Of a DNA stretch of 64,000 bases, positions 23,101-26,100 are shown piece by piece. Made by a program: the position numbers. Numbering within the stretch: the stretch's first letter is position 1; each line of letters opens with the position of its first letter. The stretch comes from Escherichia coli (GTDB lineage Bacteria; Pseudomonadota; Gammaproteobacteria; Enterobacterales; Enterobacteriaceae), in the NCBI RefSeq assembly GCF_003334405.1, contig NZ_QOWM01000015.1, one strand, 5' to 3'.

Positions 23101-26100
23101 AAATACGCTTCGTGCAGAAGTTCAGAAAAATGGGGTTAGCTGTCAGCACAAATACGCTTCGCGCAAAAAAAAATCAGGAGGCTAAGTTGATCGGGAAAGC
23201 GAACACAGATACATGATTTACCCGTTTGCTGACTACGGCTCACGCCGGGACCCTTCGGAAAAACCCTTTCTGCTTCAGCGAGTGAGTGCTGCGGGCACTC
23301 AGAGGCGCTGCCAGGGAGACAAAATTAAGTTTTTCAACTGTTTGGTAAAAATAATTAACATTTATAGGTAGTCGGGGCGTAAGCCAGTGCGTAGCACGCT
23401 CTCAAAAAATATTCCTGTGGGTTTCTTATCTGCAATAGGGAAATAACTCAGATAATTGATATATGAAAAAACAATACAATCGGGAAGACACAACTTTAGC
23501 ACAGTAAAAGCTATTTGTATTTATGAGGAATAAAATATATATGAATAATAAAATATTTTTATTTTGCTATTGATTTTAATTTTTAAGATGATAGTACTTA
23601 ATTATAAAAACAAAATAATGGAGGAAATTATGAGTGCTATTAATGTGTTATCTCAGGAGGAAAAATTTATACATGTTGTTGATAAATTTATAACCCATAA
23701 TCACAACGGCGTTAATAACAATGTCTTTTATAAAAAACTTTATGTTCTCTTCGCCGGATATCATCTGAAGTATTTTTATTCACGGGCGCAATATCGCAAT
23801 TCGTGTTATCACGTTGATAATATCATGCAGATGTTTATGGGTGTCGTTTCTACCCTGAAGACCCCTCTGCTCAGGCAACTCGCAAACAGTGACACATTGC
23901 TGCATTGCCTGAATTCGCTCGTGAATTATATTTCAGGCAATCTGGATGAAGCAGAGCACATTTATGCTGATTTACTGGCACAGTATGAAAAGAAACGCAT
24001 TGCACGTTCTCTGGCTTATACACCACCAGGATCCGTGGTCAGGAAAAGACTGTGAGACATCGGAAATGCGCCGGACAAGGCAGAGTATGGCAGAGTGACA
24101 TAAAAGCAGTCGTTTCCCGCAAGATATTACCGGGCATTAAAAAGGCAGGATCCACCGATTTGGTGTCCTGCCTGGCGGGATTATTTTATTGTGGTCTTAC
24201 TTATCAACGACCTGCCAGCCATCATCTGTTTTGACCAGCTTGACAGCCGCTGTGCGTTTTTCGTTATCGACAACAGCTGTTACATTGCATTTATAGCTTT
24301 TATCCGATAGTTTTTCGCAGTCGTGTTTTTTGACTGATTTTAACTTCCGCAGCATGTCAGGCGTGATATCGTTTCTCGCTATGGATTTAACGATGGCATT
24401 CGTCTGCTCCACGACCTTATTCATCGCAGTGTAAATATCCTGCTCAGACGGTTCACTGGTGCAGCCGGTCAGCAAAAAAATGGACGCAATGAGTGTGGTA
24501 AATGCATATGTTTTCATAAAATAATCCCAGACGGTAGAGTACGTTATTGAAAAAGGCCGGTTTTCATCTTGCTGTTGTTTTCAGAGAACGTCCACTTGCT
24601 GACGGTTTCGCCTTTAAATTCGATTTCCAGCGTTTTGGCCTGCGTCTGTGAACCCCCGGTCAGCAGTCCAATCACGGGAATGAATGTGGTGGCATCAAAC
24701 TGATTGTTGTCCATCGAATAAGTCCATTGTTCATTGCCACTATCAAGTGTAGTTTTGGTTTCGGGCTGACCGAATGCGGTAATGATTTCTGATTTCGTTG
24801 TTTTATTTTTGATGATTTTCGACTGCAGACTTTGTGATGTTTCTTTTTTTAGATGCTGGTTGCCTGATGTTGAACAGCCAGAAATAAGTAAAGAAGAAAT
24901 AAAAAACACAGAAATCATGAATCTGTTCATAAGTTTTCTCATATTAATTTTTTATGTTTGCGGTGGTGTGAAATTAATATCATCTTATAAAAACAACTCT
25001 GTCTGCATATTTCTTTTTAATAATGCAGATAAGAATAATGACGCTGGCAAAAAACGTAATGACTGAGGCAGGAGTGCTGCCGGTCAATGAAAACACTAAC
25101 CAGGCGAGAGCTAATGCCACGAATTGAAACAGGAATGCCACACTGAGTGGACTTTCACCATAGGCCACTTTTGCATGGCAACCTTTGCAAACCCGCACAC
25201 CGTGTGGGCTTTGTGTAAAGCAGAAAGGGCAGCTAATCGTTTTATTATCCATCATGACTCCGTAGCCTGATTTAAGGTGATGTATTTTTGAACATTTTCG
25301 ATGAATGAACTGCTTTAGTAAAATTGCTTGTACCGATCGATGGATCTCAGGCGATAGGTTATATCTATTATAGCTAGATTATCGATCTATAAAAACGATC
25401 GATATCTTATTGACTATCACTAAAGTATGGACTAGCTAACTTATGGTGCAGGATGGTTGTTGTTTTTAAATGATTGTTCTTTATTGGTATTTGTTGTCAT
25501 GGGATGACAGGGTGTCAGAATATGTAGGTGGAGGATTTGGTGGAAAGGATGTGCAGTGGCATGTAACAGAGACATGCCTCTGCGCCTGAGAAGTGCCACA
25601 ATATGGACGAGCAATACAAGCCATGAATACAGACGACGCTGGCGGGGTATCTGACGAGCTGTATTGTGCAGATTGCTCCTGAGCTGGATGATACCCACTG
25701 TCTCCTGTTGTCTTTCCAGACGAATTTTTTCTTCAAGCTGATGGATTTTCTCCAGAATCGTTTCCCGGTTTGCAGCCTGCTCTTCAGACTCGCATGATGG
25801 CACTGGCACTGGCACTGGCACTGGCACTGGCACTGGCGCGGTTGTAGGTTCTATTGGCCTCTGGGCTTCTTTCAGTAAACTCAGATGCTCAGGCGTAAAA
25901 TCAATCAGTGCTTGCAGGGAAGACCAGCCATATTTTTTACCCAACTGAGATGCTTTAAAGGCAATACCCTGGTATTGAAATGAAAATCCACTCATTTTAC
26001 CCGTAGTGGCGATATTGGGTTTGCAGGTCACTCCTTCCTGTTCCAGTAAGCGAACAAAGGTTAGTAAATCGGGATGGTGTGTTAATGCATTGTCGAGCAG

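What the first reader, a model, noticed from the sequence alone, without database searches (positions are those of the whole stretch)
25798..25836. Perfect hexanucleotide microsatellite (CACTGG)x6.5 encoding a (Pro-Val)n linker inside the relaxase
A perfect tandem 6-bp repeat is rare in E. coli coding sequence. Slippage would change the PV linker length in frame, so relaxase length should vary between strains. It may also be a recombination or instability hotspot.
Basis: seen in the sequence. Interest (0 to 1): 0.4.

Follow-up and report, generated by a model that had tools for sequence, protein, structure and literature searches.

The report
Length-variable Pro-Val repeat in relaxase
A perfect 6-base repeat inside a DNA-transfer (relaxase) gene on an E. 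coli genomic island really does gain and lose copies between strains, changing the length of a floppy Pro-Val hinge in frame; it is a genuine but ordinary hypervariable repeat with no sign so far that its length matters.

Summary
Window 25798-25837 is a perfect 6-bp tandem repeat of 6.7 copies (TGGCAC on +, CCAGTG in the coding sense). It encodes Ala-(Pro-Val)6-Pro-Ser, residues 278-292 of an intact 409-aa MobA/VirD2-type relaxase (25441-26670, minus strand) on an island beside ssrA.

In 59 complete E. coli genomes with a near-identical allele, the gene span changes only in steps of 6 bp, from 4 to 13 Pro-Val units. A second allele lineage has 3-17 units. Every one of the 27 E. coli copies read is in frame.

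Two clonal strain pairs differ by exactly one unit, with essentially identical 11-kb flanks. Alleles with short or interrupted tracts do not vary in length. Homologues whose synonymous sites are saturated (dS about 1.2) still carry perfect CCAGTG tracts, so slippage turns the tract over faster than point mutation.

The tract lies in a low-confidence coil between the conserved relaxase module (residues 1-270) and a variable helical C-terminus.

Best reading: a slippage-driven, in-frame repeat polymorphism tolerated in a disordered hinge. It is not a phase-variation switch. The recombination-hotspot idea is only weakly supported. This is a new member of a known kind, of modest interest.

The parts
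25798..25837 (-). Perfect hexanucleotide repeat, (CCAGTG)x6.7 in the coding sense (TGGCAC on +). Encodes (Pro-Val)6-Pro, residues 279-291.
   Evidence: Copy number is polymorphic in homologues.
25441..26670 (-). Relaxase gene, 409 aa, intact (coordinates include the stop codon).
   Evidence: ORF; Pfam PF03432; below-cutoff NCBIfam relaxase matches (MobB, TraI/MobA(P), MbpB); RefSeq annotation WP_029397782.1 in an identical copy.
25861..26670 (-). N-terminal relaxase module, residues 1-270, with the catalytic Tyr19 and the His motif H106-D-D-x-D-x2-H113-x-H115.
   Evidence: Distant homologues align only to residues 1 to about 260. Y19 and H115 are invariant and H106 and H113 at least 90% conserved in 114 sequences. 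AF2 block-mean pLDDT is 87-98 over residues 1-270 apart from a loop at about residues 151-170 (block means 66 and 73). dN/dS is 0.07-0.15.
25444..25794 (-). C-terminal region after the hinge, residues 293-409: long helices 296-339 and 343-363 (the second is hydrophobic, LYSWLVLLVHIVALL) and a low-confidence tail.
   Evidence: AF2 secondary structure and pLDDT; hydropathy peak at about residue 351; conserved only among close relatives; dN/dS 0.26-0.57. Its function is not established.
26667..27074 (-). Upstream 135-aa ORF overlapping the relaxase start by 4 nt; possible relaxosome accessory protein (context only).
   Evidence: ORF. Only a non-significant NikA-like Pfam match, E = 0.14. The same position is held by MobC genes next to the homologous plasmid relaxases. 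Annotated as hypothetical or ATP-binding protein.
27174..27200 (.). 13-nt inverted repeat GGTATACCATTTG / CAAATAGTATACC upstream of the two-gene mob operon; candidate operator or oriT element (context, unverified).
   Evidence: 92% complementary, 1 nt between the arms; sequence.
39455..39817 (-). ssrA (tmRNA) gene, the attachment locus of the island that carries the relaxase (context).
   Evidence: ARAGORN. An integrase-domain gene lies next to ssrA in the annotated, gene-identical locus L001.

Best explanation
The tract is a coding variable-number tandem repeat. Slipped-strand mispairing during replication adds or removes whole CCAGTG units. The unit is two codons, so every change lengthens or shortens a Pro-Val hinge by one dipeptide and never breaks the reading frame. 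The hinge is a disordered spacer between the conserved N-terminal HUH relaxase module and a variable helical C-terminal region of an ssrA-integrated, presumably mobilizable island. Length and even residue identity (Val, Met, Glu, Ala) are tolerated there. The polymorphism is therefore most likely neutral or nearly so. It is not an on/off switch. Shown here: the repeat, its reading frame, the copy-number polymorphism, single-unit changes within clones, invariance of short or interrupted tracts, purity despite saturated synonymous divergence, and the position in a low-confidence linker. Inferred: replication slippage as the molecular mechanism, and neutrality.
For: Perfect repeat and frame. Polymorphism: 59 near-identical alleles have spans of 1218-1272 bp in 6-bp steps, giving 4(1), 6(7), 7(17), 8(11), 9(6), 10(3), 11(6), 12(4) and 13(4) units, Hunter-Gaston D = 0.85. 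A second lineage of 17 genomes has 3-17 units, D = 0.87. Tracts read directly were pure and every ORF intact. Recent events: Res13 pig isolates carry 7 vs 8 units with 5357 + 5791 identical flanking bases, and Z1323CEC chicken isolates carry 12 vs 13 units with 1 SNP in 11.2 kb. Dependence on tract state: the unexpanded allele PTVPASVPLTVPVPS (15 genomes, all 1212 bp) and the interrupted PMPVPMPS allele (10 genomes, all 1224 bp) show no length variation. A mutated unit was itself amplified: CCAATG (Pro-Met) reaches 10 copies in L019. Concerted evolution: a Salmonella homologue (70% aa identity, dS 1.17) has a perfect x11.5 tract, and a Superficieibacter homologue (78% aa identity, dS 1.29) a perfect x8 tract, both of the same CCAGTG unit. 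By contrast, the non-repeat linker of L021 uses mixed codons. Linker position: residues 277-294 have pLDDT below 50 and no secondary structure, between a confident 1-270 fold and helices from residue 296. Distant homologues and plasmid relaxases align only to residues 1 to about 260. The nearest distant homologues have (Pro-Ala)n or Pro-Thr-rich segments at the same place. Established knowledge (mine, not tested here): E. coli MutHLS repairs loops of only up to about 4 nt, so 6-nt slippage loops escape mismatch repair.
Against: No direct measurement of slippage or of within-culture heterogeneity was possible; everything rests on assembled genomes. Neutrality is inferred from tolerance, not tested. 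Both flanking protein parts are under purifying selection, so the protein is probably functional and hinge length could matter. Most of the 59 + 17 counts come from alignment spans, with eight of the nine span classes in lineage A and seven of the eight in lineage B confirmed by reading a sequence. That inference failed for more divergent allele groups until I read their sequences. RecA-dependent unequal exchange cannot be excluded for the long tracts.
Confidence: 0.8

Rival explanations
1. Adaptive 'rheostat'. The hinge length is a rapidly mutable, heritable setting that tunes how the relaxase C-terminal region reaches its partner (coupling protein, helper type IV secretion system or accessory protein). 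Lineages would then sample different mobilization efficiencies or helper specificities: a contingency locus that never frameshifts.
For: Both protein parts flanking the hinge are under purifying selection, and catalytic residues are conserved, so the protein is probably in use. The tract persists as a pure repeat across genera. Related relaxases repeatedly have Pro-X hinges at the same junction.
Against: The commonest allele in the protein collection (representatives P0061 and P0072, seen on 510 and 556 contigs) has a single Pro-Val unit, so expansion is not needed. Val can be replaced by Met, Glu or Ala. The copy-number distribution is broad, without an obvious optimum. Persistence and purity are explained by slippage alone. 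No functional data exist.
Confidence: 0.1
2. Copy-number change arises mainly by homologous recombination (unequal exchange or gene conversion between tracts), and the tract acts as a recombination junction that shuffles the 5' and 3' halves of the gene.
For: The gene is clearly mosaic. L014 vs L022 are 99.4% identical 5' of the tract and 81.6% identical 3' of it. Window vs L011 show the opposite pattern (82.6% and 94.9%), with the switch falling across the tract: 13 differences in the 39 columns just before it and 1 in the 33 columns after it.
Against: Most maximum-chi-square breakpoints fall at alignment columns of about 1087-1176, some 170-250 nt 3' of the tract, and one falls at column 439. 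Only one inferred event abuts the tract. The steps seen in clones are single units. Tracts of 24-40 bp are at or below the minimal length usually needed for efficient RecA exchange (established knowledge, not tested here).
Confidence: 0.08
3. The length differences are assembly or sequencing artefacts.
For: None specific; repeats in general can be mis-assembled.
Against: Every difference is an exact multiple of 6 bp of perfect units in complete-genome assemblies from many laboratories and platforms. The tracts (24-108 bp) are shorter than single reads. Replicate substrains agree: three MRE162 substrains have the same span, as do Z217-2 and Z217-4.
Confidence: 0.01
4. The repeat acts as DNA on the + strand, for example as an array of sigma-54 -24-like TGGCAC boxes or other protein-binding sites, or as a structure-forming element.
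For: TGGCAC equals the consensus -24 element of sigma-54 promoters (my knowledge). The TGGCAC strand of an 82-nt tract folds somewhat better than shuffles (-14.5 kcal/mol, z = -3.1).
Against: Within the tract the GG-N10-GC spacing required by sigma-54 gives GG, not GC (my reading of the sequence). No + strand ORF follows. At the copy number seen in the window, folding is no better than shuffles (z = -0.7 and +1.1). The Pro-Met variant changes the unit yet expands equally.
Confidence: 0.01

Closest known systems
Hexanucleotide VNTR loci used for MLVA typing of E. coli and Shigella (for example the generic 'CVN' loci and the O157 VNTR set; recalled from memory, not checked here)
   Same: Short (6-bp) perfect tandem repeats, often inside ORFs. 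They are polymorphic in whole-unit steps between and within lineages and are attributed to replication slippage.
   Different: This locus lies in a relaxase gene of an accessory ssrA island present in only about 2.5% of complete E. coli genomes (134 of 5426). No paper in the searchable library lists any of 11 of the 12 rotations of this hexamer together with the word MLVA; the twelfth, CTGGCA, was never searched.
Dipeptide-repeat or proline-rich spacers in bacterial proteins: TonB (Glu-Pro)/(Lys-Pro), the OmpA Ala-Pro hinge, the Ser-Asp repeat region of Staphylococcus aureus ClfA/Sdr proteins (from memory)
   Same: X-Pro or dipeptide repeats form extended, non-globular spacers between functional parts. 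The Ser-Asp regions also vary in length between strains.
   Different: Here the spacer is in a cytoplasmic DNA-processing enzyme, not an envelope or surface protein. It is encoded by a perfectly pure DNA repeat rather than by degenerate codons.
Phase-variable contingency loci (simple-sequence repeats in Haemophilus, Neisseria, Campylobacter)
   Same: A hypermutable simple-sequence repeat inside a gene, with changes by slippage that are reversible.
   Different: The unit length is a multiple of three, so there is no frameshift and no on/off switching. All 27 E. coli copies and the 2 homologues from other genera that I read are intact.
MobA/VirD2-family (PF03432) relaxases of small mobilizable plasmids with an adjacent MobC gene
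   Same: The N-terminal 250 residues are 43% identical to relaxases of 7.6-8.3-kb plasmids. The catalytic Tyr and His motif are present, and a small upstream gene overlaps the relaxase start.
   Different: Homology stops just before the hinge. The C-terminal helical region is specific to this chromosomal-island subfamily. All 135 matching places in E. coli are chromosomal and none is on a plasmid.

Membership tests
Variable-number tandem repeat / coding microsatellite | Head-to-tail repeat of a short unit with high purity | tested here: met
   Period 6, 6.7 copies, 100% matches.
Variable-number tandem repeat / coding microsatellite | Copy number differs between otherwise near-identical alleles, in whole units | tested here: met
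   9 length classes in 6-bp steps among 59 alleles. I read 4-17 units in the first 22 E. coli loci, plus a 3-unit B allele and a 1-unit unexpanded allele.
Variable-number tandem repeat / coding microsatellite | Changes occur on short time scales (within clones) and depend on tract length and purity | tested here: met
   Two clonal pairs differ by one unit. Short or interrupted alleles are length-invariant: 15 of 15 and 10 of 10 have the same span.
Variable-number tandem repeat / coding microsatellite | Measured slippage rate, or length heterogeneity within a culture | not testable with these tools
   Needs read-level data or fluctuation assays.
Phase-variable contingency locus | Copy-number change switches expression on and off (frameshift or promoter spacing) | tested here: not met
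   The unit is 6 bp, or two codons. All 27 E. coli alleles and the 2 homologues from other genera that I read are in frame, with no internal stops.
HUH relaxase, MobA/VirD2 family (Pfam PF03432) | Significant match to the family profile | tested here: met
   PF03432, residues 32-151, E = 3.5e-22. NCBIfam relaxase models match but below their curated cut-offs, so no subfamily is assigned.
HUH relaxase, MobA/VirD2 family (Pfam PF03432) | N-terminal catalytic tyrosine and histidine-rich metal-binding motif | tested here: met
   Y19 and H115 are invariant, and H106 and H113 at least 90% conserved, in a 114-sequence alignment. The motif reads HDDPDGQHIH.
HUH relaxase, MobA/VirD2 family (Pfam PF03432) | Nicks a cognate oriT and mediates transfer | not testable with these tools
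   Only a candidate inverted repeat upstream of the operon.
Published E. coli MLVA marker | The locus or repeat unit is listed in a typing scheme | tested here: inconclusive
   No paper in the library lists any of 11 of the 12 rotations of the hexamer together with the word MLVA; CTGGCA was not searched. Many subscription papers are not in the library.

The most novel reading that the evidence does not exclude
The Pro-Val hinge is a non-frameshifting contingency element: a fast-mutating length setting in a relaxase that lets an ssrA-integrated mobilizable island adjust its transfer efficiency or its choice of helper conjugation system.
Probability: 0.08. Interest if true: 0.55.

Novelty: new member of a known kind. 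Interest (0 to 1): 0.3.

Why it matters
The locus is a clean natural example of a coding microsatellite in E. coli, a species generally poor in long simple repeats. One gene family shows the full life cycle: an unexpanded proline-rich linker, pure expanded tracts of up to 17 units, amplification of a mutated unit, and interrupted tracts that have become stable.

In practice it could serve as a high-resolution marker (D about 0.85) for outbreak-scale discrimination, but only in the roughly 2.5% of strains that carry the island. Annotation and clustering pipelines should expect many length variants of this relaxase that are one allele in biological terms.

If hinge length turned out to affect mobilization, it would be a new way for a mobile element to vary its transfer properties. 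Nothing found here requires that.

Tried and rejected
**Literature**
- Searches covered 11 of the 12 rotations of the hexamer. The six coding-sense rotations were searched alone (98 papers, 25 shown, none on typing). Ten rotations were searched together with 'MLVA'. CTGGCA was not searched. Nothing relevant turned up.
- Searches for 'relaxase + tandem repeat + proline-rich + linker', for 'PVPVPVPV', and for E. coli hexanucleotide repeats also found nothing relevant.

**Solved structures**
- A sequence search of the PDB gave no hit at E <= 1. I ran no fold search, because the relaxase identity was already clear.

**Public genome scan**
- Only one hit (Superficieibacter, L042) was a relaxase homologue. 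The rest are the same hexamer in unrelated genes and reading frames.
- The scan therefore shows that the motif is not specific to relaxases, but not how many species carry this locus.

**DNA-level readings**
- Hairpin potential is weak at the copy number in the window.
- A sigma-54 reading of TGGCAC was rejected on spacing.

**A self-corrected error**
- I first converted all alignment spans into unit counts.
- Reading three more sequences showed that the groups at 96.5% and 95.3% identity are different allele types, one unexpanded and one Pro-Met/Pro-Val interrupted.
- Only the 17 closest records are now used for the second lineage.

**Other checks**
- PADLOC and NCBIfam scans of neighbouring genes gave nothing bearing on the repeat.

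Full report
**1. The observation**

The window holds a perfect hexanucleotide tandem repeat at 25798-25837. On the + strand it reads TGGCAC x6 followed by TGGC. Tandem Repeats Finder gives period 6, 6.7 copies, 100% matches and no indels. It is the only perfect short-unit repeat with more than three copies in the 64 kb. The chance of such a run is of the order of 1e-16 for the window (my arithmetic).

The tract lies on the coding (minus) strand of ORF 25441-26670. In that sense it reads GCG (CCA GTG)x6 CCA TCA, which is Ala-(Pro-Val)6-Pro-Ser, residues 278-292 of a 409-aa protein.

**2. The gene and its setting**

- The protein has a Pfam MobA/VirD2 relaxase domain (PF03432, residues 32-151, E = 3.5e-22).
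- It also matches NCBIfam relaxase models, but below their curated cut-offs.
- In a 114-sequence alignment, Tyr19 and His115 are invariant. His106 and His113 are at least 90% conserved, within the motif HDDPDGQHIH.
- An identical copy in strain VTB96935v is annotated as 'relaxase/mobilization nuclease domain-containing protein'. It lies in an island between ypjA and ssrA that also carries an integrase, a serine recombinase, two ParB-like genes, a NACHT + RelA/SpoT gene pair and an ankyrin-repeat gene.
- In the window, the tmRNA gene is at 39455-39817.
- A 135-aa ORF overlaps the relaxase start by 4 nt. It gives only a non-significant NikA-like match.
- A 13-nt inverted repeat lies upstream of that ORF.
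- 134 of 5426 complete E. coli genomes have the gene, always on the chromosome.

**3. Copy-number variation**

*Window-type allele.* Among the 59 records with a near-identical allele, the matched span takes only these values: 1218, 1230, 1236, 1242, 1248, 1254, 1260, 1266 and 1272 bp. They correspond to 4, 6, 7, 8, 9, 10, 11, 12 and 13 Pro-Val units, with counts of 1, 7, 17, 11, 6, 3, 6, 4 and 4. Hunter-Gaston D is 0.85.

*Direct reading.* I fetched 27 E. coli copies and read the tracts (analysed).
- Every length difference checked was a whole number of perfect CCAGTG units.
- Every ORF was intact.

*Second lineage.* This lineage is about 83% identical in DNA 5' of the tract and has KKEQQQTV before the hinge. 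Its 17 genomes carry 3, 5, 6, 7, 8, 10, 13 or 17 units (D = 0.87). All classes except 8 units were confirmed by reading a sequence.

*Other allele types.* Further types carry 4-11 units (L010, L016-L018).

**4. Evidence that the changes are recent and caused by slippage**

(a) *Clonal pairs differ by one unit.*
- Two pig isolates from one study (Res13-Lact-PER04-33 and PER12-33-A) have 7 and 8 units. Their flanks are identical over 5357 nt on one side and 5791 nt on the other. The last 45 nt run out of register, which fits a single indel at the end of the locus.
- Two chicken isolates (Z1323CEC0007 and 0011) have 12 and 13 units, with one SNP in 11.2 kb.

(b) *Short or interrupted tracts do not vary.*
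- The allele with the unexpanded linker PTVPASVPLTVPVPS has the same 1212-bp span in 15 genomes from varied sources.
- The interrupted PMPVPMPS allele, which includes strain E24377A, has the same 1224-bp span in 10 genomes.

(c) *A mutated unit was itself amplified.* CCAATG (Pro-Met) reaches ten copies in strain B4103-1 (L019). Pro-Glu interruptions occur in other relatives.

(d) *Tracts stay pure despite deep divergence.*
- A Salmonella homologue (70% amino-acid identity, dS 1.17) has a perfect tract of 11.5 units.
- A Superficieibacter homologue (78% identity, dS 1.29) has a perfect tract of 8 units. Both use the same CCAGTG unit.
- At that divergence, the sixteen or more fourfold-degenerate sites in such a tract should have changed many times over.
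- The non-repeat linker of strain CX21 does use mixed codons (CCT GCA CCT GTG CCA TTA).
- Purity therefore reflects turnover by slippage, not selection on codons.

It is established knowledge, not tested here, that E. coli mismatch repair handles loops of only up to about 4 nt. That would explain why a 6-nt unit is unstable.

**5. Where the tract sits in the protein**

- Plasmid relaxases adjacent to MobC genes align only to residues 6-253.
- The 150 best representatives from a full HMMER scan align almost exclusively to residues 1 to about 260. They are 119-1062 aa long, so the C-terminal parts differ.
- An AlphaFold2 model built on the 114-sequence alignment has mean pLDDT 80 and a low overall pTM of 0.48.
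  - Residues 1-270 form a confident fold, with block-mean pLDDT of 87-98 apart from a loop at about residues 151-170.
  - Residues 277-294 have pLDDT below 50 and no secondary structure. This segment is the tract plus three residues.
  - Long helices follow at 296-339 and 343-363, then a low-confidence tail.
- The nearest distant homologues have (Pro-Ala)n or Pro-Thr-rich segments at the same junction.
- dN/dS is 0.07-0.15 for the N-terminal module and 0.26-0.57 for the C-terminal region.

The gene is therefore under purifying selection on both sides of a hinge that tolerates length and residue changes.

**6. Interpretation**

The best-supported account is a slippage-driven, in-frame repeat polymorphism in a disordered interdomain hinge, probably neutral or nearly so.

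It is not a phase-variation switch. The unit is two codons, and no allele is frameshifted.

An adaptive 'rheostat' role for hinge length cannot be excluded, but nothing requires it. The commonest allele in the large protein collection has a single Pro-Val unit (representatives seen on more than 500 contigs each).

**7. The recombination-hotspot idea**

The gene is mosaic. L014 and L022 are 99.4% identical 5' of the tract and 81.6% identical 3' of it. The window allele and L011 show the reverse pattern.

Maximum-chi-square breakpoints fall as follows:
- mostly at alignment columns of about 1087-1097, some 170 nt 3' of the tract;
- once at column 1176, about 250 nt 3' of the tract;
- once at column 439;
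- once directly at the tract (window vs L011 and L014).

**8. Comparison with known things, and novelty**

The locus behaves like the hexanucleotide repeat loci used for MLVA typing in E. coli. As a protein feature it resembles proline-rich or dipeptide-repeat spacers such as those of TonB, OmpA or staphylococcal Ser-Asp regions. Both comparisons come from memory.

I found no paper in the searchable library that lists any of the 11 rotations searched as a typing locus, or that describes a repeat-encoded hinge in a relaxase. The library is incomplete, and one rotation (CTGGCA) was not searched.

The same hexamer repeat is common in unrelated genes of other bacteria.

I class the finding as a new member of a known kind. 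It is real and neatly documented, and of modest interest.

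Noticed in passing
window 23037-23165: An imperfect 49-bp tandem repeat of 2.6 copies in an intergenic stretch. 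The core AAATACGCTTCGCGCA recurs three times, upstream of ORF 23564-24055 (+). It looks like iterons or operator sites.
   Followed up: no
window 17837-17917 (inside ORF 14142-18851, +): A degenerate repeat of period 6/12/18/42 bp (CCAAAx...) inside a 1569-aa ORF. The ORF corresponds to the ypjA/EhaD adhesin-like autotransporter. It is intact here but annotated as frameshifted in the otherwise matching strain VTB96935v.
   Followed up: no
window 30369-33388 (+): An abutting gene pair: a 704-aa NACHT-domain protein and a 301-aa RelA/SpoT-domain protein (annotation of L001). PADLOC gives no hit for the NACHT protein and only a weak PDC-S33 match for the second. This is a possible uncharacterised defence pair on the island.
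   Followed up: partly
window 34441-39432 (-): Two tandem ParB/RepB/Spo0J-like genes, a 520-aa serine-recombinase-family gene and an integrase-domain gene, next to ssrA. This is an unusual maintenance and integration module for an island at the CP4-57 locus.
   Followed up: no
window 27174-27200: A near-perfect 13-nt inverted repeat (GGTATACCATTTG / CAAATAGTATACC, 1-nt spacer) in the 200-bp gap upstream of the two-gene mob operon. It is a candidate operator or oriT hairpin.
   Followed up: partly
relaxase gene, alignment columns ~1087-1176 (last ~200 nt of the gene; window about 25441-25650): The 3' end of the relaxase gene is a sharp mosaic boundary. Alleles that are 99% identical up to that point become more than 30% divergent after it. 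This suggests cassette-like exchange of the C-terminal tail.
   Followed up: partly
L019 (NZ_CP024245.1, strain B4103-1) and L146 (E24377A): A Pro-Met version of the hinge. The derivative unit CCAATG is amplified to 10 copies in one strain. In ten other genomes it remains a stable interrupted PMPVPMPS.
   Followed up: yes
Genome-contig loci L024-L143: (CCAGTG)n tracts of 4-18 units are frequent in unrelated bacteria (Myxococcales, Burkholderiales, Streptomyces, Acetobacter genome bins). They lie in various reading frames, with Ala-Ser and Gly-Thr more common than Pro-Val. Some genomes carry many such tracts.
   Followed up: partly
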